A stretch of DNA of 62,375 nucleotides, filler included, from Globobulimina sp. (lineage: Eukaryota): the NCBI GenBank assembly GCA_003354225.1. It is 24 parts of 24 records of this genome, joined end to end, with 100 filler letters (N's around TTAATTAATTAA, not from the genome) between each part and the next. Parts side by side here need not be neighbours in the genome. Positions count along the whole stretch, not along the records: positions 54,673 to 57,173 come from PIVH01006303.1; 23 more parts are not named here. One strand, 5' to 3'. The position numbers and the translations under genes were made by a program. The notes beneath the pieces were generated by a model, which saw only the letters and a list, made by a program, of their open reading frames with translations, did not search any database and was not told the origin of the DNA. The first letter of the stretch is position 1; each line of letters opens with the position of its first letter. Shown here piece after piece: positions 10,421 to 58,282 of this stretch.

Positions 10421-12924
10421 GTGTGGTATGATGGTAAAAACCAAGGCGATTAAGCCGAGATTGGCCGCCACCAAAGTAAACAGACGAAATAAGTATAATT
10501 GAATAAACAAATAATAATAACCAGACAACAAATTCGGCGCAATAAAAGTTGAAATTATGCCCGCAAAACTGAACCAAATCAGATATAACTCCGCTTTATG
10601 GATTTCAGACAATGTTCGTTGTTGCCATAAAGTCTGCGGCTTAATCGGTAATAACCTCTGCCAAACCCACTGTTTTTCAGCATGCGATAATTGTAATATT
10701 TGGTCATCAAAATCCGAATCTCTGCGAATGCTGCGTTGAGTGGTCCAATTATACATTGCTTGCTGTACTTTTTTCGGATTTTTGTATTGAATCAATGAAA
10801 AATATCGATTCCTACCAAATGCGTACCATCGCAAATTAATTTCGAGGAAATTTAATATGAAAAAAATATGAATTAGCGCCGAGAGGATGGCATGATTCGT
10901 ATCACCCAAACTGGCCAAACCTCGGAACAATGCCACACAGACACTTGGAATTATTAAATAAACTAAAATATAATGTCGATTTCGAGAACGACGGAAAAAA
11001 TTACATTCCAAAATTGTACGCACATTGTTATGTTGCGTCGTTTCCTCGCAATCTTTGCTGTTAATACCGACTGTAAAAGAAAAGGAGGAGCCATTTATTA
11101 GCGTAGACACAAATTCATACAGCGATATTTCGTCATATTTCTCCGTCTTTGCGCCGGTAACTTCGTCATAATCGTCATAGTCAAAGGCGTCCAACAACAC
11201 AGTTCGTGATATGATGGAGGAATGCACCAATAATTTGAACTCATTTTCAGATATTTTGCCGGTGTCATCCATGTCCAACCATATAAACGCGGCAATTAAT
11301 AAATTAATTTTGGCAGATAATTTCTTACGAGACACGATATTATCATTGGCTTTCCGCGAATGATCGAAAGTCGATTCAAACTTAAATATCATGACCGGGA
11401 TAAAAAAAAACAAGCCCACCACACTCACAATGACAAAAAACAGTAAATTCACCACAGAAACTGTGTTCTGCACCACATTGAACCAAATCACACCACCATC
11501 ATCATCGTCGAAATTCTTATCGATCGCAGAATAGACGATTTCGTTGTAATTCTCGCCGGTACTTACAAAGACAAACGAGGTTATGAGTGCTCGTATGGAG
11601 CTCGCAAATGTGTCCACAGACTCGCTCGGATTTAATATGTCGGCAAACACCGCCGAAGCCAAAATGGAAACGATTAATATCAGCATCATATAACTGATCA
11701 ATATCTCTTTCGCCAATAACGTAGCATGCGCCAATTGGATGGAAAACTGTCGAATTCGCTCCGACCGAATAATTAATAAAATGGGCACCAACGGAACGTA
11801 ATATTCAAAGGGGCCGCTTTTGAGGGTGACCATTAAGATGACATTGATGATAATCAATAATAGCAACGCGATATGAATAATAAACCGACGGTAATAAGCT
11901 CCGCCGAAAAATATCAACCACGCTGTTGAATGGGTCGCCATTTGCTTCACGTATTCGTGTCGCGGACCATATTTTAATTTGGTTACTATTTCTAAAGCGT
12001 GTGCCGACAATGCACCAAATTCAATGTAGCGCGCAATGCCGATCACGATCACATCGATGATTTCAATCACAATCAAAAACACAATGATTGAGAGAGCCCG
12101 CCTACTTTGCCGCTCTTCGAAGCCTTTTTCGGTTAAAAGCTGCGGGTTTTCTGGCAGCCACATGGACGTTGCTAAGTGTATCACAATTATCAAATTCATG
12201 AAATGGTTCCAAGTTTTTGAATAGAGGAAATACAAAATTTTGCCATAGATTTTACGATTATCCTGCAACGAATATAAAAGGAAGGTTAAATCGCCATCTT
12301 TCTGGGTCTCAATGTGTTGATTGGATTGCTTGGCCATAAAATCTGTGGCCATGGACGTGGTAATGAGGTGGTTACCAATTTTACTGTCAAATGTCTCCAC
12401 GAATGCCTTCCAATTTTGTGAGGCAGCGGCTCGTAGCAAAGGCTCCATTTCATGTTTTAATTTATCATATCTGTTTTCGTCAATTACCATTGTATGCGTT
12501 TCAATGTCTCCATCGATATCCAAATCTACTGTATCTTTGCAGGCGGATTCATGGATTTTGCTTTGAATGCGATAGATCGCATAAAAGGTCACAGCTAAGA
12601 TGAAGCCAATAATTTTAGTATCGTCTTCTTCTGAAATTTTAATACTGGAGATATCCATCACAGTCACAACAATCCAATCCAGTTCGACCGGATTGTGGTT
12701 GTGCGGATAAGTCATAATTCTCCCACTGAACGCATCCGGCAAATCCAGCGGTAACCGCAAATGTGTCGGACTGGAGGAAGTATTGATGGCCAATGCGTCG
12801 GAAGCAGTGCCCGTATAAAATAAGCTGATTTCCTGAGACACGACACGCGTAAAATAGTTAGGATGCGTAGTGGCGTTATACGGCAATATATTGGAGATAT
12901 CATAACAAGTTCCTGTGATAGTAA
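10421..12924 (-). CDS. Two-pore-channel (TPC)-like cation channel with EF-hand linker (partial at both ends)
   Basis: Multiple TM helices; pore segment FASSIRALITSFVFVSTGENYNEIVY; S6 LFFVIVSVVGLFFFIPVM; EF-hand DMDDTGKISENEF; then the start of a second transmembrane repeat. Confidence 0.75.
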
Positions 12925-15628: not shown

Positions 15629-18132
15629 TTATTTTTATATATCTCGTTTGCTTCATTATAAGTATCTAATTCCACATTAATTTTAATTAAACGGCCAAAA
15701 TTATCCAACTGTACATTCATAACAATCGGAGCTGGAATAATATTGTCAGTGCCACCTAAATCAATCCCGTCGAAGAAGCCCATCATATCCATATCGTCGC
15801 CATTGTTGTTGCCATTTCTTTCCTGCTGTTCAGGAATCTCAATTATATTATCTTGGTCTAAAAACGCAGCATAATATCTATGACCGTCCTCTTCCGATTC
15901 ATCCTCATCCTCATGATCAGACATCACCTGTTCAATATTTTCCGTATGCTCTGCCAACAAAACAGTATTTTTACCAATGCATTCGAGCATTTTCCCAGAG
16001 GCTGCCCTAAAAAAACAGGGATGGTGAAACAACATCAATTCTTCGTCCTGTTCGAAGCCTAACACACTCATTTTGTCAGTAAACAATTCCAACGCATGCG
16101 CGGAATTCCGGTGGTCCAGAAAACGTTCAATGAGTTTAATGAACTGTTCTACATTCACAATTTGAAAAGCTCTGCCGTCAGAAACCCACATAGCACTACA
16201 ATGAGCACACTCGGCCTGTTCACTCTGTTGCTGATGCTTACATTTACTCAATTCGTGCCATATGACATTTAGCAGAAACTGGTCATTCCAGTAATTATCC
16301 AACAACACACCTTGCAACGTCTGCCGCTCTGTGTTATATTTGTCAATCAGTGCCATTGCGTCGTATAAATGTTCCACCGGCTCCCAAGTGGCCTGCGTCA
16401 AACTGAATGCTTCCCATTTCACTCGATATAAATCAAAGACATCGCCACATTGAGGATCGTCATTGCTGACATGGTCAATGATGGCCTCAATCTCATAGAT
16501 AGCGTCCGGGTCCTCCTTTACATCCATCTCATCATTGTCATATTGCAATGCATGTTTATAATCGTCACAATTATCGCTTTCTAGATTGCAATTTGTCATG
16601 AATTCAATGCAAGAGTTGATGCTTTTGACCGCTTCACTTTCACATAATTCATTGTTGGTTATCTCGCGCGAGATTGAATTTAATGAGTATTGAATGGAAT
16701 TATCAATCAAATCACTCACAATATCATCAATAAGCTGACTAATGTCCTCATTATCTTTCTCTTCCAATGCATTGATATCAATATTATTATTTGCAGCAGG
16801 ATCAGGCGGCGGTAGTTCGACATTATTGTCCTCCATATCTGCCATAAATGGTTGCTGTTCGTGCCATAGATTTTGGTCTAAGAGCTCCCTGCGATCCTCT
16901 CTGGATTTATAATTCCGTAATAAATAAAATTTCAAATGCAGCACATACGCGGACAAATGTAATGTTTGTATGACCAATGCGCGCAATATCGGCTCCCAAA
17001 AAAATAACATTGGCACTATAGAAAATAGCAACACATAATCTTGCAATAACTAGATATATTTTGCCATACAAAAGCATTCTGTAATGATACATCAATGTAC
17101 AAGTACACTTAACTAATGATTTAACGTGGAAAGATTTGATTTTCCCCACAGAGGGCACATTGAGTGGTATGATGTGATTACACTGCGACATAATATATGA
17201 TGGGAGGCCTAAAAAGGCAAATATAGCCACTACGAAATGTAATGTAGTCATACACCATTTTCTCAATTGTGCAGAGGACCGTTCCTTATATGAAACTGTA
17301 TAACAAATGTTTATTGCGCAATATATTCGAATTAAAAAAATGGAGTAACTTAACATGGATGGAGCCAATTTTTGGTCTCAATCACAGATCGAAACAAAAA
17401 AGTAAAGGCAGTGGGACGCATAATTTTTTCTAAAATATCAACAGTGGATAAATAGGTACAGATTACGATGGAAGTCCATAATAACATCAATACAATGTAC
17501 ATGACGGCTGACGTTGTTTTAGCATCCATGCCATTGCCATTTATGCTCTCTTTGTGGAATATAAAGGTCTCATACAATATTCTATAATTATCCACTTTCG
17601 ATGCTTCTCGAATGGGGAAGAAACAACATTCCATCGATAACGTTAAAATCAATGGAAAACATATAAATTTTAAACATAAAAACAAAATTCCTTTAAATAT
17701 GTCCATTTTATCAAATAACCACAAGTATAAATTGAATATAAAAATGCTTGTATTTTGTCGCATGGATAACCGCAAAAAATGTTGAAGCTGTATAAAAAAA
17801 ACGCGTTTTTGAAAATGCAGGTTTTTAAGTAAGTACACTTTGAAAATGCATGGCAACTTAACATCCTTTACGAGCTTTAGCATAATCTTCAACATAACGC
17901 ATTGATAAAGAAAACATGAACAATATCCAACGCACATAACACATAAATTGCGTGCAAAATGAGTGAATATAAATGTTCCATTATTATACTGATTAAAATC
18001 AATTAAATCCATACAATTTGTAGTTATTTTATGATTTGGTAAAAATATATAACATAGAAAATATATCGAATGTAATGTGATCTGTCCAGCAAAATGAGGC
18101 AAAATAAAATGAGAAAAATGATTGTTTATTAG
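15629..18132 (-). CDS. DOA10/MARCH6-like multi-TM protein segment with in-frame chromodomain and HSF-type DNA-binding domain (partial)
   Basis: TM region LKFICFPLILTLSMECC...LEKIMRP...QLRKW...LGLPSYI...SAYVLHLKFYLL aligns by eye to the MARCH6 TD region. Introns 17296-17354 and 17050-17125. Chromodomain about 16333-16497; HSF-like domain about 16000-16280. Confidence 0.65.
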
Positions 18133-29164: not shown

Positions 29165-30493
29165 TTAGTAGCTATCTTCCTCAGATTCCCCATCTATTTG
29201 TTCATTTAACACATCCATGTAATCTTTCTGTAAAAATCCTAAATCTTCTCTAGCACATGAAAACTCTCCAGATTCCATACCCTCGCCCCAAAGCAAGTAC
29301 GTATGTGCTCGCAGAGGGTACATTGCATCAAATCGTTTACAAACTCTCTGATCGAATAATCTAGACACACATGTATTATTTGCAACCATTGTTACTTGTT
29401 TATCTTCGCAAATATCATCATTAATATATTTAACTGACACTTTGTTGTTGCTCCAATGTGTGAAGCTAGCTTCTCTTTTCGTTATACCTGCTTTCACGCA
29501 TTTATTAATATCATACATATATTCATCAACATTATTTCCGCGATAATTCAACTTTAATGACATGAACCTATCCTGTTCAGCATCAAAATCTTTCGATTGA
29601 ATGAAAAAATGCGTTTTCGTAAAGCAATTATTTGTTAATGTTTCAATCTCATTTTTCGTTTCCATATTGTTAGCTATGATTTGCCCCAAAGAAGTTATCA
29701 AGAAAAGCAAGCGTGGAAATGCTACCATATCACAAGAAAATGAATTTAAACCCTCTTTCAGTCCGAATCGCCATGGCGCAGTGATGTTTGATATTACTTT
29801 GCAGCATAACGAATTATAGTGTTTGAAACGGGGTGTTTTTATTTTGAGCATTTCCCTACAGATTGTATGTAACTGTAAGTTATCCAACAGAATGGATGCA
29901 TCCATATAATTCAATAACTGCGACGTACACAATAAAGTATTGTATATTTGCGTAGGTGACATTGATTTATTTTCATCCAAAAATATGTGAAATCCAACCT
30001 TTGTTTTCTTCCGATAATCAACATACATTCGTTCCAGACACAATGCAGTGAATCCGCTTCCTGTGCCTCCACCGAGAGAGTTATTGATTATTATTCCTTG
30101 AAAGTTATTACATTCCTCAACCATCAATCTCAGCTTTTCATCAAATGTATGAATTAGTTGTCTGCCGACTGTATAATGAGCTCTGCTCCAATGTAATCCA
30201 CCTTCTTTCGCAGCAATAAGATAATCATCAAATACTACATGTTTATATTTGTAGAAATTGTTAATCATATTTATTGAATACTGATTCAAATCAGCAAACA
30301 TTGCTCTTGCTGTGTACTTTCCATTTATTGATTCTCTGAATGATATTGATATGCTATCGTCATATTCTGTTTTACGTTCTTTATTGCCATTTGCTGAGAT
30401 GCCTTGGTCTGCACAATACTGTTTCAAAGTAGATTGGCCAAGGTTGATACCAGCACCTCCAACATTTATTGTGATTATCTCGCGATGTGACAT
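29165..30493 (-). CDS. Highly divergent alpha-tubulin-like protein
   Basis: MSHREIITINVGGAG; ARAMFADL; tubulin signature GGGTGSG; DYRKKTK; FPRL; GEGMESGEFSCAREDLGFLQKDY; acidic tail ending in Tyr. Intron-less, 442 aa. Confidence 0.9.
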   Translation of the reverse strand: MSHREIITINVGGAGINLGQSTLKQYCADQGISANGNKERKTEYDDSISISFRESINGKYTARAMFADLNQYSINMINNFYKYKHVVFDDYLIAAKEGGLHWSRAHYTVGRQLIHTFDEKLRLMVEECNNFQGIIINNSLGGGTGSGFTALCLERMYVDYRKKTKVGFHIFLDENKSMSPTQIYNTLLCTSQLLNYMDASILLDNLQLHTICREMLKIKTPRFKHYNSLCCKVISNITAPWRFGLKEGLNSFSCDMVAFPRLLFLITSLGQIIANNMETKNEIETLTNNCFTKTHFFIQSKDFDAEQDRFMSLKLNYRGNNVDEYMYDINKCVKAGITKREASFTHWSNNKVSVKYINDDICEDKQVTMVANNTCVSRLFDQRVCKRFDAMYPLRAHTYLLWGEGMESGEFSCAREDLGFLQKDYMDVLNEQIDGESEEDSY

Positions 30494-41728: not shown

Positions 41729-43872
41729 CTACAAATCAATTTGCACACTGTCACCTAAATTATGAATCCTTTTTGTCTCATTATTATTATTATTATTTGG
41801 TTGTAATTGCAAATGATTGGATTGATCGGCATCCATTGACAAAGAGGCGCTGGTTAACAATGGTAATATTTGTCTGCGTGACACATTCTTGTCACTTTCA
41901 TTTTTATTTTTGTGCTCATTTTCATTTTCTTCATCATTATCACTGGATATCCTCTTATTTGATACATTCATTTGTTGCATAACAGCAATTTGGTCGTCGT
42001 AATAAGTCGACTCTGAGATGTTATTATGTAACGACAATATATTCTCATTATACTCGCGATTTCGTTCATTTTCCTTGTGCTGATTCTCATTCTTCTTCTT
42101 ATTATATTTATCAATCAACTGTTTCAACTTCGGTTTAATTAATCTGTCCCAATGATACTTATCTTCATTTAAATAATTATCATACAAATCGCTCAACGAT
42201 CGCAACTTTTCTTTGGTTTTGTTCAACTTATTCAAGTCCAGCGAACAAATACTAATCAAAGCTTCATTCTCCTTCTTCTTATCAATCAATTCCTGCTTAA
42301 ACAGCGAGAGCTCATTCTTGATGTCCTCGAAACTGGGGCGAAATTCTGCGATTTCCTGCCAACAGCGCTGCATTAAGATCTTTAAAGGCCGAGGAAACCA
42401 CTCCAGCACAAAGGGCCGCGTCTGTTTACTGATCACTTCGACCGCCAAACTCAACACTTTGGTGCATGGATACGGCGGCATTCCGCACAATATCTCCCAC
42501 ATAACCACCCCGAAGGAATACACATCGGTGGAGCTGTTGTAAATTTGCTGCTTGATCGATTCGGGAGACATCCACTTCAATGGTCCAACATGGCTGTTTG
42601 TGAAATTTTTCTCGTCGGGGTTCTGCGTAATGCGCGACAGCCCGAAATCGCACACAATCACGCGACGACTACAACGGCTCTCCTCATAGATCACGTCATT
42701 GATCTGCCGGTCCGAGATGTTGTCGATCAGCAAGTTCCGCGCGGCCGCGTCGCGATGGATTATATTCACAGTATGCAAATGCGAGATGCCCGCCGCGGTG
42801 TCAATGAGCATTTGGACACAATCCCCCATGGTCATGCCGGCCCGAATCGACTTTTCGTGCGTCACAGACACACTTATTTCCACACTGCCGCCGTTCACGT
42901 ATTCTGTCACCAGCGCATAGGGCGAGATGCAAAAGCCGTAAATCTGCAGCACATTGTCGTGCGGCGGTAAATGCGCAGCCACCGCTAATGTAGAGATTGG
43001 GCGTTTGTGTGGGTGCAAGGATGCGGTATATAGAGATTATGGAGGGGCGACATACATATTTCTTTAAGGAAATCTTCAAAGACTTCCTGGTCCACTTCGT
43101 CCTGTTTGAACCATTTGACCGCCACCGTTTTCTGCTGCTTTGTATTGGAATCGGTCCACATGGCTCGGAAGACTTTGCCAAATTTGCCGCGACCCACTTC
43201 GTACTCGAACGAGATGTGATGACTGTCGATTAGCTGCAACTTATTGCGCGCATTGCGCACAATTGCATGCAAGCGATGTTTTTGAGAGATCAATTTGCGA
43301 TGTTGTTCCTGATGGTATTTATTTATGTGCAATGAGCGCGTGATTGGGGACGGCGGCGGGTTGCCGCTCGAAGTGGTCACACTCGCTCCGTTTAGCGCGT
43401 GGTTGATGTGCATGTGGTTGACGTTGCTGTTATTGCCAGATTCGCTCGCTTGGGAACCCGGCGCATAGTTTTCGGGATGAACTAGGAAATTGGCATCGAA
43501 CTTGCTATCGTCCCATTTGGGGATTCCATTTGCATTCACAAAGTCTGACGAATTGGTAGTGTCTTCTTGGGAATATTGGGTAGGACCATTGCCGTCGTCG
43601 TTGTCATGGAGGGCATGGTTATTGTTGCTCGGGTTTGGATTGTCGAGATTGTGCATATTGCTGCTGGTATTTTGCTGGGTATGGTGCGCGTTGCGATTTA
43701 AGTCATGAGTTCCATTCTTGTTTAAGGGCTGTTGTTCCTTTTTTTGTTGACGAATTAATCGTTTATTCTTTTTCCAAAAGTAATATAAACAACAACACGT
43801 TATTACAATTATACAAATAAAAACTCCGCCTATTGCTGATCCGATTATGATCAAAGTATTAATGCTTCCCAT
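41729..43872 (-). CDS. Single-pass membrane protein kinase with tyrosine-kinase-type signatures
   Basis: N-terminal TM; GRGKFG; VAVK; HRDAAARN; DFG; GPLKWMSPES; DVYSFG. Phase-1 intron 42985-43055 joins the ORFs. Confidence 0.9.
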
Positions 43873-44265: not shown

Positions 44266-45742
44266 ATATCAAAGAGTCTGACATTTGGGTTGGATTACAA
44301 TTGGCAGAACAACCAAATATAAACAAGCTAGCTTTAATGTTAATTTCCAAACTCTCTCCAGATCGATACAAACGTACATATGCCATGTAAATAAATACAG
44401 GAAACCTCATAGCAAACACAAAAAATTAAAATCCATATCTTACGAATGTTTGAATGCAATATCGTTTCTTGATTATTTCACTGCGAGTTATGGAATATTA
44501 ATACCACGAAAATATGTACATAAAAAAATCAATGCGCATCAAATATTAACTAAATTAACTCAGTTATTCCACACTTTAAAAAGAACACAAAAACGCAACC
44601 TCACTTTGACTAAAAAAGTCAAGCAATTACAATCTGAAATGCAAACAATAAAAAAAGTGAAAAAAACCTCCCAAAAATCATTAGAATCTATCATTTATGA
44701 TCAAAATGGGAATTCTTACCATCATCACCAAAAAATCACACATACCACCACGCATTCATACAAATCCTTTAATAAAAAAAGCGAATCAAAACAAGAGAAA
44801 CCTGATCATCCATCAAAGCATATACATATAGAGGAGGAAGACAATGATAATGACAATGACAATGATTCCACCATAATATCATTACCAACAAAGGCCAGCA
44901 TTGCCAAAAGCAACGATTCCACCGATTCGCGAGACGATGATCCTGATAATGACAACAACAACGACCACGCATCAGACAAAGCAGTTGATGGCGTCAAAGA
45001 TAATCACAGCGACAGAAATATGTCAGACTGTGATGACGATAATGTCATTGTGGACGAGCCGCCATCTTCCACTACAAAGCCACAGCCAACATTAATAACT
45101 CACGCATTTGACCCTGGTCTGCCATTTATATCCTTGCACTCAAAAAAAACCACTTTTTATAACGATATTGATATAGAAAAGGATGTGATCAATGAAGAGG
45201 ATGAAGAGGATTACAATTTGAGTCACGATGTGAATGGTAATCGATTATCGCACGGACGGAGATATTCTGCGCCTTGGGACAATAAGAAATTGTCCACCTC
45301 AGAGTTTGGCACTGATTACGAAAAAATGTACGATCCGTATTGGAAGAATAGCGGCAGCAGAAATGTGATGGTTGACAGTCATATACATAATGATAACGAC
45401 GACGATGATGATGCGCTGTATGATGCTAATAATGACAGTAAACATCATAGGAATGAAAGCAGCACAGAAATAAATATGCTGCCAATGATAAAAGAGGACC
45501 CGACGACGAATAGGATTTACAGACTTTCGCGAGTTCAACAAAACCAGCAAAGTATGAGAGAGGGACATAAAAGATCGATGTCTATGAATATTGTAAAGTT
45601 ATGTTTTATTTCTATTTGTATTAATTCAATGTTTTCGCGTATACAAATGGTACAAAATATAAATATTATATATGTGTACTGTAGATTGCCCAGATATTTT
45701 TTTGAAATCGATAATGAGTTTCCAGATTTACCTGATTTATAA
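44266..45742 (+). CDS. Hypothetical coiled-coil + acidic low-complexity protein (exon boundaries uncertain)
   Basis: 485-codon ORF with a coiled coil (LTKKVKQLQSEMQTIKK) and an Asp/Asn-rich region. Confidence 0.6.
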
Positions 45743-46867: not shown

Positions 46868-49265
46868 TAATCAAATTGGACGTATATATTCAGTTAATTT
46901 TAAAGAAATTGAACGTTGGTGTTTACGTAAATTATTATTACGAGTTTCGGGTGCTACATCTTTTGCACATCTTCGAACAGTGCCAAAAACAGAAGATATA
47001 AATTTTATTATTCCCCAAGAGGAACAAAAAGAAGGCAAAGAAGAGGATTTAGATGATTTTATTGTCGATGATGAGGAACCGATGGATTTGGATGACGAAT
47101 ATATTCCTGAAGAACCACACAACAATGATAATAATGGCAGTAATAACGCGCGAAGTTCAATGGAAGAAGATGAAGAAAAACAACATATGGCATCAAATAT
47201 AGACCAGACACTAGAAGATATTGTTGATTTTGATGATGAAATGGATGCAGAAGAAGCGCAGGATGAAGGATATTTTGATTTTGATGCGGCAAACGAACAA
47301 TATTATTTAGCAGGAGATATGAAAGAGGAAGAATCCACAGTCTACGCGACATTTAAAGAGGCATGCCAAGCGCGAGGCTTTTTAGATGACGATAGAGAGT
47401 GGGATTTAGCTATAACTGAAGCGAATGCAGCTGGTGCAAGTGCAAACCAATTACGGGAATTTTTTTGTTTAATATTGGTAAATAATACGCCCACCAATTC
47501 GAAGAACATATGGGATAAACATAAAAATAGATTTATGGATGACAGTGAATTTTATAGAGACGGCGATATGGATAAAGCTGAGAATTTAGCCTTATTACAA
47601 ATACAAAGTATATTAGAAACACATAGGTGTACTATGGCTCAATTTAATTTACCTCAACCCGTTCCGGACGAATTATTTGCCAATAACATACCAAAGGATT
47701 TATTAGCAGAAATAAGTTATGACATAAAGGAATGTAAAAAAAAATTGAAATTAGGGTGTCAAAAAATAAGAAGAAATAGAAAACAAAATGAGATATATCA
47801 GGAAATTCGAGCTTTAATTGATTCAGGAAACCCATCAGGTCAATATTTCTTTGTTGATGGACCAGGTGGTACGGGTAAAACACTATTATTTAATACCTTA
47901 CTCAATTATGTACGAGCCAAAGAACCAGCAGCTAATGGTGATAGACATATTGCTGTTGCATGTGCAGCCTCTGGTATCGCTGCATTATTATTATCAGGTG
48001 GTAGAACAGCACATAATAGATATGGTTTAGGTGTGGACATTGGTCCTAGAACAACCTGTAAATATGATAAATTTAGAAACTGTGCTAGAACACAAATATT
48101 AAGACGTGCAGAGATTATTATTTGGGATGAGGCGACAATGTCTTCAAAATATATGTTAAAATCCGTGGATTTATGTTTACGTGATATTATGGATAATGAA
48201 TTACCGTTTGGTGGCAAATTAATTGTATTTGGCGGTGATTTTCGTCAAACATTGGGTGTAGTAGAAGGTGGTAATAGAGCACAAGAAATTGCTATGTGTA
48301 TTAAAAGTTCCCCTTTTTGGAATGATATTAATATCAGAAAACTTACCGATAATATGAGAGTAAAAAGTAATCAAAACGAAGAGAATCGAGAAAGATTAGA
48401 AACGTGGAGTAATTATTTATTATCTGTTGGTGATGGGAAAGAAAGAGTGACTGAAGAAATACAAAAACAATTTGTAGCTGGTATAAATAACACGATTAGA
48501 TTACCAAGAAATATTATATCAAAATCAAAAACAGTTGAAGATTTAATTGATGAAATATATCCAAATTTAGAAGGTGGTATACACAATGATGATATTGAAA
48601 CGACTGCAATATTAACTCCATTAAATAAAGATGTAGACACATTAAATGAACTTGCGATGGCACGGAGTAGAGGCGAACAGTTTGCACCGGTTTATAGTTC
48701 AGATTCTGTGGTTGATGAAGGGGATGGAACATCAGAACGTTATTCAGAGGAATATTTGAACGGATTAAATGTGTCTGGATTGCCTGTACATAAATTAAGG
48801 TTAAAAAAAGGTGTACCGATTATGTTATTACGGAATTTATCACCAATAAATGGATGTTGTAATGGAACACGGTTAAAAGTTCAACATGTGGGTAAATACG
48901 TGATAAGAGGAATGATTCTTACTGGACCTAGGAAAGGATATATATTTTTTATACCACGGATTACGTTAATAACCAAAGAAGGAAAATTTGCAGGATTTCA
49001 ACTCAAACGGAGACAATTTCCAGTCCGACTTGCATATGCTATGACAATTAATAAATCACAAGGACAAACACTTGAAAATGTTGGATTATATTTACCAAAC
49101 GCATGTTTTGGTCATGGACAACTTTATGTTGCCTTATCAAGGGTTGGTGATCCAAATATGATTAAAGTTGTAGTATTACCAACAAAACAACAAGGGACAT
49201 TGAATGATGATACTTACACCAGAAATGTGGTGTATACAGAGGTTCTTGATAATTATTTAGAGTGA
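46868..49265 (+). mobile_element. Helitron Rep/helicase ORF, C-terminal Pif1 helicase part (5'-partial)
   Basis: IGRIY...LRKLLL...ATSFAHLRTV; TFKEACQARGFLDDDREW; DGPGGTGKT; ASGIAALLLSGGRTAH; IIWDE; PFGGK...GDFRQ; LRNL...NGTRL; RRQFPVRLAYAMTINKSQGQT; GHGQLYVALSRV; TRNVVYTEVL. No stops or frameshifts. Confidence 0.92.
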
Positions 49266-49563: not shown

Positions 49564-51282
49564 TCAAACCCAAGGAGTGTTACAACAATATCGACAATCA
49601 ACTTTCCATTTATTGTCATATTGGATGCTTTGATCAATATTTTTTTGTGTAATACTTATTGCATATTGTTTGAAATCACTATAACATATTTTACCAAAAT
49701 GCTTTAAAGTGCCTGCTCTTTTAACACGAACTCTAAACAACCGATCCAATCCAACCATGGCATGTGACAATTGGATACAAAGCCAACTGTGATCCCTAAC
49801 ATTCCAACTGTATTTAAATTGTATCTTTCCGATTGGATAAGCAATCAAATAATTCATCACCAGATTTTGAATAATATCTGCAAATGGTTTCAATACCGTT
49901 TCGAGAATGGGTTCAATACAGCATTCCGGTTTGACCTTGGAATGGGATGACTTTACATGAAATTTAAGCAACAATGGTCTTTTACAACTATGAGCATAAT
50001 AACATCGAATGGTATTCAACACTTTAACCAATGTCTTAGTAAAATCAGCTAAAATCTCTATTTTTGTTTCACAGAATCTGTCATTTATATTGCCATCATC
50101 TTTTAACACCATTACTAATTGGAATAATTTCAATTTTGTTTCGCAGTGTAATATTGAACTAATTGTTTTTTCAAACTTGGATGTATGGTTTTTATCATCA
50201 TCTGATATGTGAATAACTAAACATAATTTCTCCAAATTTGGTACTAATCTGCGAAGACTATGCAATGGGGAGCTTGCATTTTGACTCATTGATATGGAGA
50301 TGCATAGCTCGGTAACTTTATTTAACGCATTGCTATTATTATTGTTTAAGTATGCGGGCCCATCGAGGCCTTTATCTGAATGCGTATGCAGAGACTCTAA
50401 GTATTGGAATGCTAACAAATTGGATACAATATTTGCTGCTAATATATGACATAAGTTGTGATTACTTTCATTGTTTGGTTCCGCATACACAAATCCTTTT
50501 AAATTCGCCAATGATTGTTTAATTCTGTCAAGATTATTAAATTCATCATCCGTATTTTTACATTCTATGTGCTCCGTTGCGGCTAAATATGTATTTTCCA
50601 ACTTTAACACTTGCAAATTGTTGGGTTGTGATGGTAATATAAAATTGACGATATTTTTATATTGTGAAAATATATGCAGATCGTCATCATAATCGTAAAA
50701 GACTTGCAATGTGTCGGATAAATCACAATCAATAAAAGCAATAGATTTTAACTGATAAATAATGTGATTATAATATGAATGAGGAACACCACCAACATTC
50801 AATTTGTACTGTTTTAAGAAATATAATATATTTTGCAGCATATTCACATTTGTAAATGAAATGGTTTCCAAGAAAGACATTGGTTCGATTGCATTGCAGT
50901 TATTGTACTGATCATGATCGAAATAACATTCATCAAACATATCAAAAAAGGATAAATGCTTCACTTTACGGAATAAATTGAATATCTTTATATTGGTTAA
51001 AGTATTGAAATATTCCAAGTCAATGGATAATGTTTCTATATTTTTAAATCTATGCAGATAATTCATATTTTTCACATTTTTAAATTGATGATGTAAACTG
51101 CGATAACTCCCATCAACAATGTAATCATTGTTTGTCTCACTATATTTATAAGGATCATATCTATGCATTAAATTATTAATTGATGTCGGTGTATGGCATA
51201 TTATTGCTAATTTTCTGTCAGCTCTGGCAAGATTGATAATGGTTGACATTGTGAGAAAATGGCAAATATTGTTACTAATGAT
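49564..51282 (-). CDS. Hypothetical F-box-like / LRR-like protein
   Basis: 561-aa ORF. The in-frame 5' extension IISNNICHFLTMSTIINLARADR resembles an F-box; LRR-like LxxLxL strands recur. Confidence 0.6.
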   Translation of the reverse strand: MISNNICHFLTMSTIINLARADRKLAIICHTPTSINNLMHRYDPYKYSETNNDYIVDGSYRSLHHQFKNVKNMNYLHRFKNIETLSIDLEYFNTLTNIKIFNLFRKVKHLSFFDMFDECYFDHDQYNNCNAIEPMSFLETISFTNVNMLQNILYFLKQYKLNVGGVPHSYYNHIIYQLKSIAFIDCDLSDTLQVFYDYDDDLHIFSQYKNIVNFILPSQPNNLQVLKLENTYLAATEHIECKNTDDEFNNLDRIKQSLANLKGFVYAEPNNESNHNLCHILAANIVSNLLAFQYLESLHTHSDKGLDGPAYLNNNNSNALNKVTELCISISMSQNASSPLHSLRRLVPNLEKLCLVIHISDDDKNHTSKFEKTISSILHCETKLKLFQLVMVLKDDGNINDRFCETKIEILADFTKTLVKVLNTIRCYYAHSCKRPLLLKFHVKSSHSKVKPECCIEPILETVLKPFADIIQNLVMNYLIAYPIGKIQFKYSWNVRDHSWLCIQLSHAMVGLDRLFRVRVKRAGTLKHFGKICYSDFKQYAISITQKNIDQSIQYDNKWKVDCRYCCNTPWV

Positions 51283-53469: not shown

Positions 53470-54516
53470 ATGGAAGAGGAGACCAAAACCGACGTTAAAT
53501 CAGAATATAAATATCCAGAGATTGATTGGGATAATATACTACCAAAATTACCGATAGATAATGATGGTTATGTTTTCTCATTTGAAATTCTAATCGATTC
53601 AGATGATGAAAAAACGAAACAAAAAAATAAACGTGAAATTCAGGATTTCTTTGATAAATTTGGTGTTGTAGTAATTAACAATATATTGGATGAAAAAGAA
53701 GCAGATTTATCCTGTAATGAATTATTTGATTATATAGAAAAGAATTTTGAAGGATTTGATAGAAACAATGCAAATACATGGCATACAATACAAGGTTTAT
53801 CCGCCAAATTAGGACTGATTACAGATTGGCCAGTTATGTCACCACAAATTGTTAAAAACCGTATTAATAGAAAATTATACACTGCATATTCCTATATCTT
53901 AGATACAGAAATTAATAATATCTACACAAATATTGGTCGAGTGGGTTGGATGCGACCTACCAAAAATATAAAATTTTCAGAGAATCAAATTGAAGATAAA
54001 CCCGAATGGAAAACACAAGACGGTACAAAATGGTTACATTTGGACTATGATCCTTTATCAAACCATTGGACCACATTTGGTTTAATGCCCAGAAATGGGG
54101 TGAAATATGCAAAAATGGATAGATTTAACTATGTGCGGACACAAGCTATATTAGCATTGGATGATTGTGGATTAAGTGATGGTGGCTTTCAATGTGTTGC
54201 CGGCTTTCACAAAATTATGAATGGTGTTTGGATAAAAGAATATGGAAAAGAGTTTGTTGAGAAAGGTGTATTTCAGCATAGATATCAATTTGCATCAAGC
54301 GATCCTTTAATTAAATATATTACAAAATGTCCATTAAAAAAAGGAAGTTTTTTAGTATGGAATTCAAAGTTACCACATAATAATTTTAGCAATAATTCGA
54401 ATCACGGGAGAAAAGTTCAATATATTAAATATGCGCGGTACGTAGTGTTGATCGGTGGTAACAACGCTCATTTGACACATATGTGTTATAACCAAATCAA
54501 AAACACCTTGCAGTGA
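53470..54516 (+). CDS. Phytanoyl-CoA dioxygenase (PhyH)-family 2OG-Fe(II) oxygenase
   Basis: FFDKFGVVVI; WLHLD; GGFQCVAGFH; KGSFLVWNSKLPH; R.VQYI. The 3' end probably continues after an intron. Confidence 0.8.
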   Translation: MEEETKTDVKSEYKYPEIDWDNILPKLPIDNDGYVFSFEILIDSDDEKTKQKNKREIQDFFDKFGVVVINNILDEKEADLSCNELFDYIEKNFEGFDRNNANTWHTIQGLSAKLGLITDWPVMSPQIVKNRINRKLYTAYSYILDTEINNIYTNIGRVGWMRPTKNIKFSENQIEDKPEWKTQDGTKWLHLDYDPLSNHWTTFGLMPRNGVKYAKMDRFNYVRTQAILALDDCGLSDGGFQCVAGFHKIMNGVWIKEYGKEFVEKGVFQHRYQFASSDPLIKYITKCPLKKGSFLVWNSKLPHNNFSNNSNHGRKVQYIKYARYVVLIGGNNAHLTHMCYNQIKNTLQ

Positions 54517-54672
54517 TCACGCATCGTGATAACGAGTGTTTGTTAACTATTTTGTATACACTGTTGTCACCANNNNNNNNNNNNNNNNNNNNNNNNNNNN
54601 NNNNNNNNNNNNNNNNTTAATTAATTAANNNNNNNNNNNNNNNNNNNNNNNNNNNNNNNNNNNNNNNNNNNN

Positions 54673-56924
54673 ATATTATAATAATTTTTTTTGGCTGCAA
54701 AAAATAGACAAGTTTGGCCGAATTCATCTTGCAATGTTAAATCTGGATGACAGTCCAATATGCAACTTATACTTTTTATAGATTCAGATTGCACTGCTAA
54801 CATTAAGGCAGTTAGACCTTGTGAATCTTGATAATTTATATCAATGCTATCCATATATGATAACAATAAGAAGGACACAATCTTGTGATTGCCTAACAAT
54901 GAAGCATACATTAATGCAGTTTTCGACGTTTTATCCGCTTTATTAACATCGAGGTGATTATCAATTAATATTTTCGCAGTCGCATAGGAATCATTTTGGG
55001 CGCAATGTATTAATGAAGTTCTACCATATTCATCTTGCAAATCTATATTCGCATTATATCGCAACAATGTCCTTGCCACTTCACTATGGTTATATATACA
55101 AGAAGTCATCAAAGCGGTTAACTTTGTATCCGAATCATACGATATTTGTAATGTGTCCACATTTTTGATTTTACCAGTTTTTACCATTTCTAATATCCGT
55201 GAATGTTCCCCTTTTGCTGCAGCTTCGAACCATTGCGATGTAATATCATTACGAAAATCCAGTCTCCCTTTTCTTGCGTCGTGCTCTAGCAATGGGCCAA
55301 TGCAGTTTTTACCTTTTTTCTTTGCTCTTTGCAAGGATAAATCAGCGCGTTGTATCCAATCCGCAGGGGACTCGTCCACAAATAACAGCGGAGTCTCTTT
55401 GTTTTTCTTGTCAGATTTGAGCATACTTATTCCCATTGACACAGTCATATAAACGTCGGCTAGTTGCGTCTCCAAATCGTATTCAATGTAACCATATTTC
55501 CGTTTATTATTGTTCTGATTCTGTTCATTTATATATACAGTCTGGTTTTCAGTCAATTTGCCCACTCTCATCGGTATACAATTGCATCGGATTTTGGTTA
55601 AGATTGTACCCGCTAACCGTTGCAAGTCATCATTCGTATCAATGGGTGTCAACAATGCAAATTGATCCGAATCTAAATGAAATACTTTTTGTTCTGAAGA
55701 TGTTACACAGGAATAGATGCTTTGCGATAAATGTCGCAATAAATTGGGAGCAATTTCCTGCTCCTCCTTATTAACAATACTATTTCCATTCTGATTGTGT
55801 GTTAGCTGAGCATCGCATATTGAGACACATTTCTTATTCAATTCATCCGTGATTTTCGCAAAATTATCAACATCAATCAATAATAGGCCCCATTCTAAAT
55901 ATTTTGAATATTGATTCAAATCTAATTCGTGGCTATCATCATTCAAATCTAGTTCGGTCTGTTCTGTCTGTTCAGATAATAAATATTTGCCATAAAATAT
56001 TTGATCCGCAATCTTAATAAATGCATTGTTATTTGGTAAGCCAGTAATAAAGTTCCTGGACACAGTGGTCGCATCCATGGGATCTTTGGTGCGCAGACAG
56101 GTGTCACTGACAATGCGTAATAAATAACGGACTGATGACAAGGTTGAGTCTCTGTTGATGACATTCATTTCAATTTCATCGCATAATACTTCTAAACGGT
56201 CGCGTATTTCTAATAATATCGGCTTCATTTCTGATGGATTGTTATATTGCCGGCTATGAATGGGAGCAGCGCCTAACTCTGCGAATGACATTGGAATTAA
56301 AAAATTGCGAAATTCATTACAATTTACAATGCCTGGATGGTGTTTGATGTCATCCATATATTTTTGCAATTGCACTCGTCTCTGTTGAATAAATCCAGGC
56401 TTAAACCGACCAAAATGTTGTTTTGGTGGTAGCCTGGCGGCTAAATCAGGCACAATTCGCAATAACTGTTTATGTAAAGTTTCAAAGTGATTGTATCTTT
56501 TCCATAATTGCCACTTAAGCGGTATCTTATAGTCACTGTCGGATACCATTAAGTTATAGGCTACGAATGGTTTGCCTTGTTTCTGTTGTGATGGTTCTTT
56601 GCCTGTATCGGATACTTCTATTTGTAAATTAGGGGTGAATTCATGCGCTATTAATTGTTCATCTGTTCCGCTTAATATTAAGCATTGTCGAAATTTTATC
56701 GAGACGGGTAATGATGCATCTCGTAACACTGATATTATTTTAGAAAATTCCCATGTTTCCACTACAATGTCATTGATTTGCGTGATCCACGAGCCAACAT
56801 ACAATGATTTGGCTAGTATTGGGTTTAAAATTGCTTTTACAATGGCGTTTTTATTATGATCATCACCAACAATACGAAATCCATACGGCTTAGTCTCAAA
56901 TTGCAGTTCGTATGAAGCTGTCAT
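54673..56924 (-). CDS. PDZ + PX + degenerate GGDEF + ankyrin-repeat protein (3'-partial)
   Basis: PDZ (KPYGFRI...VGSWITQIND); PX (KRYNHFETLH...LPPK...IQQRRVQLQKY); GGDEF fold (LLLIDVDNF...FHLDSDQFALL...TVSMGIS...IQRADLSLQRAKKKGKN); ankyrin repeats (QDEYGRTSL, QDSQGLTALM). One continuous frame. Confidence 0.85.
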
Positions 56925-57410
56925 GTATTGTGTGCATAGAGGACTAGAAAACAATAGCTTTGGAAACGCTTTGCTTGATATGACTAAATTACTGTCACAT
57001 TGGTAGCACGTAAACGAATACACAGTTTCGATAATTTGACTACAAATAAATGGGTCGTTTTTCAATTTGGGACAGAAAGCCAAAAGGATGACTAGCTTAC
57101 TTCGTGAAAACTTTAATATCAGGGTTATCACCTCATAAACTGCAACGGACGAAAGTTTAGAATATGGGAGATTNNNNNNNNNNNNNNNNNNNNNNNNNNN
57201 NNNNNNNNNNNNNNNNNTTAATTAATTAANNNNNNNNNNNNNNNNNNNNNNNNNNNNNNNNNNNNNNNNNNNNACGGTAATGCAGCCACTATTTATTAAT
57301 ATTTTAGCTGCACAGAATCAAAACTTTTCGTTTTATGCATACAAATAGACGGAGATTTTATATGTAAATAACCGTAATACAATACCTTAATTTAATATCA
57401 ATGTATAAAG

Positions 57411-58282
57411 GTTATGCTGTTTCCGTGGCAGAAAATCGTTATCATACTATGGATCCGTCATTTTCCTAACAGGTAAAATATTAATATTTGTCATGATCAA
57501 ATTATAAAATGCATTTTCAAATAACAGGATCGTGTGTTACTTTGGTAAAGAATTTGTTTTATTTACTTGACGTGCCACTGGCAAACATGGCAGGTGCTGT
57601 TATGTCGTTATTTAGCGGTTGCTGCTATACCATTGGTGGACTGTGCTTTATGTATCCGAATAAATGTTGGATTTGGCGTCCATATAAATTGGCGTGGTGG
57701 AGTGCGTGGTTTTGGGGCATTGGAGGATTTTGTTTTTTGTTGTTTGGGGTTGGTTCGTTTTTCCCGGATAATGCAAAAGTTACTTTGTGGTTAGCTCAAA
57801 TACCCAGCTTATTAGGGATGGTATGCTATTTATCTGCAGATATGATATCTGTATTTATGTGGAAATTGGAGCAATATGGAAATGTATTTTTGCCATTTTT
57901 AAATGAAAATAAGATGAGAAAAAGGAAGAGCGTGTTATATCGGGATCTATTGTTTATATTTGTATATATATTGTCAGCCACTGTATTTTTGATTGGATTA
58001 TGTTATGCTTCGTTATGTCATTGGTTTCAAGATTGGATAAAAGGATATGTGTTAGGTTTAACTGCATCATTTGCTATATTGTTAATGGGCAGTTTTCTTC
58101 ACGCTGAACCAGAGAAAGCACCGTTTTCATATTTATTGTGGTATTTGAGATTTTATTTTGTTTGGATGACTATCAATGCAATAATCGATACATATCATAT
58201 TTCTGGCACGCAATGTCATAAATATGGATCGCCTGGCATGGACTGTTCCGATCTACGCGCTCAATGTGACACTACCACTTGA
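57411..58282 (+). CDS. Multi-pass membrane protein (YrhK-like repeats), 5'-partial
   Basis: Repeated helices SYYGSVIFLTG, AWWSAWFWGIGGFCF, SLLGMVCYL; intron 57473-57527. Confidence 0.6.

What the first reader, a model, noticed from the sequence alone, without database searches (positions are those of the whole stretch)
54673..56924. Eukaryotic PDZ-PX-GGDEF-ankyrin protein: a diguanylate-cyclase fold wired into a membrane-trafficking scaffold
Seen: one open frame carries PDZ, PX, a complete GGDEF-fold domain (about 55300-55892) and ankyrin repeats. The GGDEF framework is clear (beta1 LLLIDVDNF, TVSMGIS, RADLSLQRAKKKGKN). The signature loop reads DSDQF (55659-55673), the N-D..GH..GD guanine-binding helix is replaced, and there are two insertions. 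Both metal-ligand Asp positions remain. Established: GGDEF/c-di-GMP signalling is essentially bacterial; the well-characterised eukaryotic exception is dictyostelid DgcA. PX domains are eukaryotic phosphoinositide binders, so this is not a bacterial contaminant. Inference: a horizontally acquired GGDEF domain was domesticated as a cyclic-dinucleotide/GTP sensor, an altered-specificity cyclase or a dimerisation module on endosomes/phagosomes. This could be an undescribed protist signalling system, for example sensing c-di-GMP from bacterial prey.
Basis: partly seen in the sequence, partly recalled or inferred. Interest (0 to 1): 0.85.

Follow-up and report, generated by a model that had tools for sequence, protein, structure and literature searches.

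The report
Degenerate GGDEF domain in protist scaffold
A single-celled eukaryote related to foraminifera encodes a membrane-trafficking-type protein that contains a bacterial-style diguanylate-cyclase (GGDEF) domain which has lost its catalytic motif, so the domain most likely serves as a structural or regulatory module and not as an enzyme.

Summary
A 750-codon intronless ORF lies on the minus strand (ATG at 56924) and runs off the end of a 2.5-kb contig at 54673. It encodes a PDZ-like region (below Pfam's threshold), a PX domain, a helical stalk, a GGDEF-fold domain and ankyrin repeats. The GGDEF assignment is solid: Pfam 34.1 bits against a cut-off of 23.8, family profile against PDB E 4.6e-6, and VIA Z 16.1 with all 50 rows GGDEF. 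DSDQF sits exactly at 55659-55673 and aligns with GGDEF. The gene is not a chimera. An independent 2,843-nt contig from another study covers 54673-56923 without gaps, and a 64%-identical EukProt protein has the same architecture. Of 37 listed differences, 29 are synonymous. The family is small. Its only named members are Reticulomyxa filosa hypothetical proteins, and no bacterial GGDEF reached E<=0.001 among 1.84 billion representatives. Across the family the catalytic and ligand sites are not kept: no Gly-Gly (0/7), no fourth-position Glu (0/7), no guanine-binding Asn (0/9), no RxxD I-site (0/8), and the first metal-binding Asp in only 4/9. The best reading is a non-catalytic (pseudoenzyme) GGDEF module in a PX-anchored ankyrin scaffold. 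A sensor or cyclase role is not excluded, but no canonical site supports it. No paper pairing GGDEF or diguanylate with foraminifera or Reticulomyxa was found.

The parts
54673..56924 (-). Intronless ORF of 750 codons, ATG at 56924, cut off at the contig end (C-terminus missing; the full-length relative P0001 has 884 aa)
   Evidence: The start is shared with P0001. An X1 contig of 1,986 nt and an X6 contig of 2,843 nt are longer than the part that lies on the piece, which reaches this end.
56700..56897 (-). PDZ-like region (residues 10-75; KPYGFRIVG loop at 56865-56891)
   Evidence: Pfam PDZ E 0.094 and E 0.0025 / 18.6 bits alone, both under the 23.2-bit cut-off. ESM-Atlas feature hits are mostly PDZ clusters at 0.87-0.92. 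The AF2 model is too poor to test.
56286..56627 (-). PX domain (residues 100-213), with KRY (56484-56501), PPK (56409-56432) and RR (56367-56387) motifs
   Evidence: Pfam PX E 9.9e-18. The best solved relatives are the SGK3 PX domain, E 7.4e-11, and SNX16, SNX33 and SNX17.
56091..56228 (-). Two conserved helices ('stalk', residues 233-278) leading into the GGDEF domain
   Evidence: AF2 helices 20-38 and 44-64 of the 346-aa segment, pLDDT 73-79. Conserved in P0001, P0002, P0005, P0009-P0011 and P0018.
55290..56087 (-). GGDEF-fold domain (residues 280-545) with four variable insertions (about 55893-55946, 55755-55808, 55497-55565, 55368-55418)
   Evidence: Pfam PF00990 34.1-37.7 bits. Profile against PDB E 4.6e-6. 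Foldseek E 7.8e-7. VIA Z 16.1, rmsd 2.0 A over 148 residues. ESM Atlas 30/30 GGDEF.
55659..55673 (-). DSDQF, the degenerate counterpart of the GG(D/E)EF signature
   Evidence: Aligned to GGDEF of MorA. Coordinates. The family pattern is D[SADL]D[QTL]F in 7/7.
54675..55247 (-). Ankyrin repeats (residues 560-750, truncated by the contig end)
   Evidence: Pfam Ank_2 E 1.1e-29 and four other Ank families above cut-off. P0001 has 9 Ank stretches.
54573..54672 (.). Artificial linker (N44-TTAATTAATTAA-N44) joining this contig to an unrelated one. A second linker lies at 57174-57273.

Best explanation
This is a genuine nuclear gene of a foraminifer-like protist. It encodes a multidomain scaffold: PDZ-like, PX, helical stalk, degenerate GGDEF, then about 9 ankyrin repeats. 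Shown: the domains, their order, the fold, the loss of the cyclase and I-site residues, and purifying selection on the coding sequence. Inferred: the PX domain places the protein on PI3P-rich endosomal or phagosomal membranes. The PDZ-like and ankyrin parts bind protein partners, much as the PDZ and PX of a sorting nexin do. The GGDEF domain no longer makes c-di-GMP and acts as a non-catalytic module (a pseudoenzyme). It would hold or orient the membrane-binding and ankyrin halves, probably as a stalk-mediated dimer as in bacterial diguanylate cyclases.
For: Real and eukaryotic. 7 of 10 large ORFs on other pieces of the assembly match Pfam families at E<=1e-5; most are typical of eukaryotes (RIC1, tubulin, chromo, MATH, PIF1, protein kinase) and the seventh is PhyH. 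The PX domain's best solved relatives are SGK3 and sorting nexins. The only named relatives are three Reticulomyxa filosa hypothetical proteins (lineage). Not chimeric. One 2,843-nt contig of run X6 (a different study) covers 54673-56923 with 58 differences, no gaps and no joints. X4 record 14 covers 55393-56854 and X1 record 1 covers 54673-56234. P0001 (EukProt, 884 aa, 64% identity, 100% coverage) has PX+GGDEF+Ank. Under selection. Of the 37 X6 differences listed (of 58), 30 are at third codon positions and 29 are synonymous. At least 5 of the 8 replacements fall in the variable insertions and none touches a quoted conserved motif. GGDEF fold. See (7/10 members hit PF00990). Catalytically degenerate (family alignment; residue correspondence). 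Signature D[SADL]D[QTL]F: Gly-Gly 0/7 and fourth-position Glu 0/7. Lys after DxF 0/9. Guanine-binding Asn 0/9. The Asp of 'GD' is in-column in 5/8 and is Pro in the window protein. The first beta1 Asp is present in 4/9 (S, A or F in the others). The RxxD I-site is present in 0/8. The structural core motifs are conserved: NFxTGLPNNNAF, EWGLLL, TxSxGIS, and ADWIQRADLSLQRAK..KN in 12/12 with a basic residue at both canonical Lys/Arg positions. The N-terminal PDZ-like+PX part is the best conserved (88% identity to P0001 over 215 aa, against 60-62% for stalk+GGDEF).
Against: There is no functional or binding data of any kind. Several residues that touch metal or phosphate in active cyclases are still conserved: the third signature position (Asp 7/7), the second beta1 Asp (8/9), and both basic residues of the C-terminal helix (12/12). 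Some nucleotide or metal binding could therefore survive. The roles I give to individual GGDEF residues are recalled from the PleD/WspR literature and were not measured here. Dimerisation is an analogy only. The PDZ assignment is below threshold. PI3P binding by the PX domain is inferred from motif conservation. Expression was not shown.
Confidence: 0.58

Rival explanations
1. The degenerate GGDEF domain is a ligand sensor. It binds GTP, another nucleotide or a cyclic dinucleotide (for example from ingested bacteria) at a remodelled site, and couples this to the PX/ankyrin scaffold on phagosomes or endosomes.
For: Asp at signature position 3 is invariant (7/7). The second beta1 Asp is kept in 8/9. 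The two basic residues of the last helix are kept in 12/12. Degenerate bacterial GGDEF domains are known to act as GTP or c-di-GMP receptors (recalled: PdeA, PelD, PopA). The PX domain suggests an endosomal or phagosomal location.
Against: The canonical I-site RxxD is absent in 0/8. The guanine-contacting Asn is absent in 0/9, and the Asp of 'GD' is Pro in this protein. Positions 2 and 4 of the signature and the first beta1 Asp vary among members, which is not expected for a conserved ligand pocket.
Confidence: 0.2
2. It is an active nucleotidyl cyclase with altered chemistry or specificity that uses the two retained Asp residues (beta1 and signature position 3) as metal ligands.
For: In the window protein both Asp positions are present. 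The stalk-GGDEF arrangement of active cyclases is kept.
Against: The first Asp is S, A or F in 5 of 9 members. No member has Gly-Gly or the fourth-position Glu (0/7). The Lys after DxF is missing in 0/9. Known active variants of the motif (recalled: GGDEF, GGEEF, AGDEF, SGDEF) are far closer to the consensus than DSDQF.
Confidence: 0.07
3. It is an artefact: a chimeric assembly, or a bacterial contaminant or endosymbiont gene that carries eukaryote-like domains.
For: The contig is only 2,501 bases and stands alone. The window is a concatenation of unrelated contigs, so there is no genomic context. GGDEF is overwhelmingly bacterial.
Against: Contigs from three further runs in other studies cover the joins without joints. 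A 64%-identical protein in EukProt has the same architecture. R. filosa relatives exist in NCBI. No bacterial GGDEF reached E<=0.001 among 1,835,955,588 representatives. G+C of 0.33-0.34 matches the rest of the window. In relatives, the two halves are called as separate ORFs on contigs of equal length (2,524; 1,462; 23,026 nt), breaking after LTPI[DE]G. That fits an intron, but I could not fetch that DNA.
Confidence: 0.03

Closest known systems
Bacterial degenerate (non-catalytic) GGDEF domains, e.g. the FimX GGDEF domain (PDB 3hva); LapD, PelD, CsrD and PdeA are recalled examples
   Same: Same fold (3hva Z 14.9). The GG(D/E)EF signature is lost while the core motifs are kept. The domain sits inside a larger signalling or scaffold protein.
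   Different: Those domains are bacterial and are usually paired with EAL, or bind c-di-GMP through RxxD or GTP through a largely intact A-site. This one has neither site, carries four insertions, and is fused to PX and ankyrin repeats in a eukaryote. By fold score it matches degenerate domains no better than active ones (Z 14-16 for all).
Dictyostelium DgcA, the characterised eukaryotic diguanylate cyclase
   Same: A GGDEF-family domain encoded in a eukaryotic nuclear genome. PMC5055082 (passages read) states that diguanylate cyclases were previously found only in prokaryotes.
   Different: DgcA is an active enzyme that makes secreted c-di-GMP. The present domain lacks the catalytic motif and has a different architecture. 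No direct sequence comparison with DgcA was made here.
Sorting nexin 27 (PDZ-PX-FERM) and other PX scaffolds (SGK3, SNX16, SNX17)
   Same: An N-terminal PDZ-like region followed by a PX domain. The PX is most similar to SGK3 (E 7.4e-11), SNX16, SNX33 and SNX17. The RY, PxxPxK and RR motifs align with SGK3.
   Different: No FERM domain was found. The SNX27 PX itself is only a weak match (E 0.38). The C-terminal half is stalk-GGDEF-ankyrin, which no sorting nexin known to me has (recalled).

Membership tests
GGDEF domain family (Pfam PF00990) | Profile match above the curated gathering score | tested here: met
   34.1 bits in the whole protein and 37.7 bits in the 346-aa segment, against a cut-off of 23.8. 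7 of 10 family sequences match at E<=0.01. With the family profile against PDB, 20 of 24 hits at E<=1 are GGDEF/diguanylate-cyclase chains, 2 are 'ammonium transporter' chains matched in their C-terminal part, and 2 are dynein light chains at E 0.56-0.81.
GGDEF domain family (Pfam PF00990) | GGDEF/palm fold | tested here: met
   AF2 model with mean pLDDT 69 and core blocks at 83-91. In Foldseek all 34 listed rows are GGDEF proteins, best E 7.8e-7, TM to target up to 0.72. VIA Z 16.1, rmsd 2.0 A over 148 of 161 residues, and all 50 rows are GGDEF proteins.
Active diguanylate cyclases | GG(D/E)EF signature with both Gly and the fourth-position Glu | tested here: not met
   DSDQF aligns to GGDEF. 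In the family Gly-Gly is 0/7 and Glu at position 4 is 0/7.
Active diguanylate cyclases | Metal-binding Asp on beta1 (first Asp of DxD) | tested here: inconclusive
   Present in the window protein (IDVDNF aligned to IDLDHF of SadC). Present in only 4 of 9 family members.
Active diguanylate cyclases | Guanine-binding Asn and Asp (ND ... GD) and the Lys after DxF | tested here: not met
   Asn 0/9. Lys 0/9. The Asp of GD is Pro in the window protein and in-column in 5/8 of the family. The residue roles are recalled from PleD.
Active diguanylate cyclases | Synthesis of c-di-GMP from GTP | not testable with these tools
   Needs an enzyme assay.
I-site c-di-GMP receptors (degenerate GGDEF type) | RxxD motif five residues upstream of the signature | tested here: not met
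   The window has SSEQ at that place. 0 of 8 members have R..D. The spacing is recalled from PleD.
PX domain (PF00787) | Profile match above cut-off and conserved phosphoinositide-binding motifs | tested here: met
   64.9 bits against a cut-off of 21.6. KRY, PPK and RR align with RRY, PAK and RR of the SGK3 PX. The role of these residues in PI3P binding is recalled. Lipid binding itself was not tested.
PDZ domain (PF00595) | Profile match above cut-off, or PDZ fold | tested here: inconclusive
   13.5 and 18.6 bits against a cut-off of 23.2. No PDZ hit was listed for P0001 or P0002. The AF2 model has pLDDT 46.9 and is unusable. ESM-Atlas features point to PDZ clusters at 0.87-0.92, which is a lead only.
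Ankyrin repeats (PF12796/PF00023) | Profile match above cut-off | tested here: met
   Ank_2 103.3 bits against a cut-off of 27.3, and four more Ank families.
SNX27-type sorting nexins | PDZ-PX-FERM architecture | tested here: not met
   No FERM family was listed at E<=1 or E<=10. Stalk-GGDEF-ankyrin follows the PX domain.

The most novel reading that the evidence does not exclude
Foraminifera (and close relatives) have domesticated a bacterial GGDEF domain into a phagosome/endosome-anchored sensor. The remodelled pocket (invariant Asp at signature position 3, second beta1 Asp, two conserved basic residues) would bind a nucleotide or cyclic dinucleotide released by ingested or symbiotic bacteria. 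Binding would switch the ankyrin/PDZ scaffold, giving a STING-independent eukaryotic route for detecting bacterial second messengers.
Probability: 0.12. Interest if true: 0.85.

Novelty: new variant of a known kind. Interest (0 to 1): 0.5.

Why it matters
GGDEF domains are the hallmark of bacterial c-di-GMP signalling, and the one characterised eukaryotic case is dictyostelid DgcA. Here a GGDEF-fold domain is fixed, conserved and under purifying selection inside a eukaryotic PX-ankyrin scaffold, in a second and unrelated eukaryotic lineage (relatives in Reticulomyxa filosa). It appears to have become a pseudoenzyme. This gives a concrete, expressible test case for what a nucleotide-cyclase fold is reused for after transfer into a eukaryote: dimerisation hub, conformational switch or ligand sensor. 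It also shows that annotators should not read 'GGDEF' in protist genomes as evidence of c-di-GMP synthesis. I found no paper that pairs GGDEF or diguanylate with foraminifera or Reticulomyxa, and none listed for GGDEF domain with PX domain.

Tried and rejected

Homodimer of stalk+GGDEF (complex prediction): no verdict (score 0.02). This is not evidence either way.

AF2 of the N-terminal 215 aa: mean pLDDT 46.9, too poor for a fold search. The PDZ fold was therefore not tested by structure.

Profile A3 against PDB: the 60 rows shown were all ankyrin-repeat matches driven by P0001, so it was uninformative for PDZ.

Bacterial relatives and donor: phmmer of the 346-aa segment against 1.84 billion representatives gave only 7 hits, all family fragments. 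Profile searches gave 15 family members in the 'near' length range and 1 in the 'longer' range. No bacterial sequence came close enough, so no tree was attempted and HGT remains an inference.

The search for related loci: with alignment A2 in genome contigs the alignment had no stretch conserved enough. With the whole protein in metagenome contigs it returned one locus (L001) that matches only ankyrin residues 636-719 at 33%, which is irrelevant.

Expression: no RNA holder is listed. X6 and X8 are only guessed to be RNA, so nothing is claimed about transcription.

Introns in relatives: these are inferred from split ORF calls.

Inverted repeat near 57087-57170: contig pieces suggested one, but the repeat finder found none.

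Supplementary files of papers were not consulted.
Full report
WHAT THE WINDOW IS. The 62,375-base window is not one stretch of genome. It consists of 24 pieces of 2,501-2,506 bases, joined by N44-TTAATTAATTAA-N44 linkers and ordered by length. The finding lies on the piece 54673-57173. The genes on either side (a PhyH-like ORF at 53470-54516, a membrane-protein-like ORF at 57509-58282) are therefore unrelated contigs and give no context. Of 10 large ORFs from other pieces, 7 match Pfam families at E<=1e-5. Six are typical of eukaryotes (RIC1, chromo, tubulin, MATH, PIF1 helicase, protein kinase) and the seventh is PhyH. The other 3 match nothing. G+C is 0.26-0.45 across the window and 0.33-0.34 at the finding. 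No whole genome is held for the window.

THE OBSERVATION. On the minus strand an ORF starts at ATG 56924 and is still open at 54673, where the contig ends. That gives 750 codons with no interruption. Pfam finds PX (E 9.9e-18), GGDEF (E 2.8e-8; 34.1 bits, cut-off 23.8) and five ankyrin families above their cut-offs. PDZ scores only E 0.094 (13.5 bits, cut-off 23.2). The first 95 residues alone give PDZ E 0.0025 / 18.6 bits, still below threshold, and the relatives P0001 and P0002 list no PDZ hit. An AF2 model of the first 215 residues was too poor to use (pLDDT 46.9). ESM-Atlas feature neighbours of the first 95 residues are mostly PDZ clusters at 0.87-0.92, which is a lead and not a test. I therefore call this part 'PDZ-like, probable but unproven'.

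THE GGDEF DOMAIN IS REAL. Five lines of evidence agree.
- Pfam: the match is above the curated cut-off in the window protein and in 7 of 10 family sequences.
- Family profile (A2, 10 sequences) against all PDB sequences: 24 hits at E<=1. Of these, 20 are GGDEF/diguanylate-cyclase chains (best MorA 4rnh, E 4.6e-6). Two are 'ammonium transporter' chains matched at their C-terminal 492-639. Two are dynein light chains at E 0.56-0.81.
- AF2 model of residues 215-560: mean pLDDT 69, with core blocks at 83-91 and the insertions below 50. In Foldseek against PDB it gave 77 matches at E<=0.001, and the 34 rows listed are all GGDEF proteins (best 7a7e, E 7.8e-7; TM to target up to 0.72).
- VIA-align: Z 16.1 to 4iob (rmsd 2.0 A over 148 of 161 residues, 21% identity). 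All 50 rows are GGDEF proteins. Most say so in their titles; the PleD, WspR/PA3702, ImcA and DosP rows I assign from recall.
- ESM-Atlas features: 30 of 30 neighbours belong to one set, whose listed clusters carry GGDEF (score 0.97).
The domain runs from about residue 280 to 545 (55290-56087). Two conserved helices precede it (residues 233-278), like the stalk of bacterial cyclases.

NOT A CHIMERA, NOT A PSEUDOGENE. Eight runs in four studies hold the stretch or part of it, and I laid four of them.
- A single 2,843-nt contig of X6 (another study, another organism code) covers 54673-56923 with 58 differences, no indels and no joints.
- X4 record 14 covers 55393-56854.
- X1 record 1 covers 54673-56234, and the record is longer than the part laid.
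Independently, a 64%-identical 884-aa EukProt protein (P0001) has PX, GGDEF and about 9 ankyrin repeats in the same order. P0002 and R. filosa RFI_02130 join PX to the stalk/GGDEF start. P0006, P0008 and P0012-P0017 join the GGDEF end to ankyrin repeats.
Of the 37 X6 differences that the tool listed (of 58), 30 are at third codon positions and 29 are synonymous. The 8 replacements lie at residues 324-551, at least 5 of them inside the variable insertions. The coding sequence is under purifying selection, with relaxed loops.

A SMALL, LINEAGE-RESTRICTED FAMILY. phmmer of the 346-aa stalk+GGDEF segment against 1,835,955,588 representatives found only 7 proteins at E<=0.001. All are fragments that align with this family. 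Word-indexed profile searches found 15 members (near lengths) and 1 (longer), the latter being P0001. The only names any source gives are 'hypothetical protein RFI_08500 / RFI_39343 / RFI_02130 [Reticulomyxa filosa]', a foraminifer. These are only 29-31% identical to the window segment by the search's BLASTP figure. The window organism is therefore a relative and not demonstrably that species. No bacterial GGDEF came near. A bacterial origin is a reasonable inference from the distribution of the domain, but nothing here shows it.

WHAT THE SITES SAY. I took residue correspondences from the HMMER alignments to SadC and MorA and tabulated the family.
- Signature: D[SADL]D[QTL]F. Gly-Gly 0/7, Asp at position 3 7/7, Glu at position 4 0/7 (Q, T or L), Phe 7/7.
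- beta1 'DxD': the first Asp is D in 4/9 (including the window), S in 3, A in 1 and F in 1. The second Asp is kept in 8/9.
- Lys after DxF: 0/9.
- Asn of 'ND': 0/9 (T, V or S).
- Asp of 'GD': in-column in 5/8, Pro in the window protein.
- RxxD I-site, five residues upstream of the signature: 0/8 (the window has SSEQ).
- C-terminal helix ADWIQRADLSLQRAK..KN: a basic residue at both canonical Lys/Arg positions in 12/12.
The functional meaning of these positions (metal ligands, guanine contacts, phosphate contacts, I-site) is recalled from the PleD/WspR literature. Sites that vary between orthologues (the first Asp, signature positions 2 and 4) are not behaving like a catalytic or ligand pocket. 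The fold-defining motifs, in contrast, are nearly invariant.

MECHANISM. The most likely reading (about 0.58) is a pseudoenzyme. The PX domain keeps RY, PxxPxK and RR aligned to SGK3, so it would anchor the protein on PI3P membranes. The PDZ-like and ankyrin parts would bind partners. The stalk plus dead GGDEF domain would serve as a rigid connecting or dimerising module. The N-terminal PDZ-like+PX part is the most conserved (88% to P0001, against 60-62% for stalk+GGDEF). This fits a protein whose core job is membrane and cargo binding. The rivals are a remodelled nucleotide or cyclic-dinucleotide sensor (0.2), an unusual active cyclase (0.07) and an artefact or contaminant (0.03). A homodimer prediction gave no verdict and counts for nothing.

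COMPARISON AND NOVELTY. The domain works like the degenerate GGDEF domains of bacterial signalling proteins (the FimX GGDEF domain is among the fold matches, Z 14.9). It lacks both features those domains usually retain, an I-site or a near-intact GTP site. It is a member of the GGDEF family by profile and by fold, but it fails the defining tests for an active diguanylate cyclase. Its N-terminal half resembles SNX27's PDZ-PX order without a FERM domain. A review of Dictyostelium signalling states that diguanylate cyclases were previously found only in prokaryotes (PMC5055082, passages read). A 2026 paper on archaeal GGDEF proteins mentions eukaryotes only in passing (PMC13725321, passages). Full-text searches found no paper with GGDEF+Reticulomyxa, GGDEF+foraminifera or diguanylate+Reticulomyxa. 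No listed paper combines 'GGDEF domain' with 'PX domain' (listing only). The 10 papers holding c-di-GMP+Rhizaria are about other things, judging by title and abstract. The R. filosa relatives are already in public databases as hypothetical proteins, one with a precomputed PF00990 hit. The sequences are therefore not new, but the architecture and its degenerate state appear undescribed. Verdict: a new variant of a known kind, with moderate interest (0.5). The interest would rise sharply if ligand binding were shown.

Noticed in passing
whole window; linkers at e.g. 2507-2606, 54573-54672, 57174-57273: The window is a pseudomolecule of 24 unrelated contigs of 2,501-2,506 bases, sorted by length and joined by N44-TTAATTAATTAA-N44 linkers. 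Any 'neighbourhood' argument across a linker is invalid.
   Followed up: yes
window 29165-30493 (-), 2922-4964 (+), 46980-49265 (+), 41729-43018 (-), 15629-17046 (-): Other pieces carry long intronless ORFs for a tubulin, a RIC1 homologue, a PIF1-type helicase, a protein kinase and a chromodomain protein. Three further large ORFs (10421-12886, 44285-45742, 49564-51249) have no Pfam match at E<=1e-5.
   Followed up: partly
relatives P0003/P0013, P0010/P0014, P0011/P0016: In related organisms the N- and C-terminal halves of the GGDEF domain are called as separate ORFs on contigs of equal length, breaking just after LTPI[DE]G. Several ankyrin-side fragments break after LQDE. This fits introns at conserved positions that the window gene lacks. 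The DNA could not be fetched to check.
   Followed up: no
window 57087-57173: Upstream of the gene, contigs of X6 and X8 match short pieces in both orientations (57087-57141 minus, 57124-57170 plus) and then run on unlike the window. This suggests a repeat or a rearranged 5' flank at the contig end. No inverted repeat was found within the window piece itself.
   Followed up: partly
window 55362-55422: In run X4 several short contigs (30-60 nt) pile up here and the depth doubles in the 55345-55428 bin. An A>T / A>C site lies at 55392. This looks like an assembly bubble from allelic or strain variation inside the lysine-rich insertion of the GGDEF domain.
   Followed up: no
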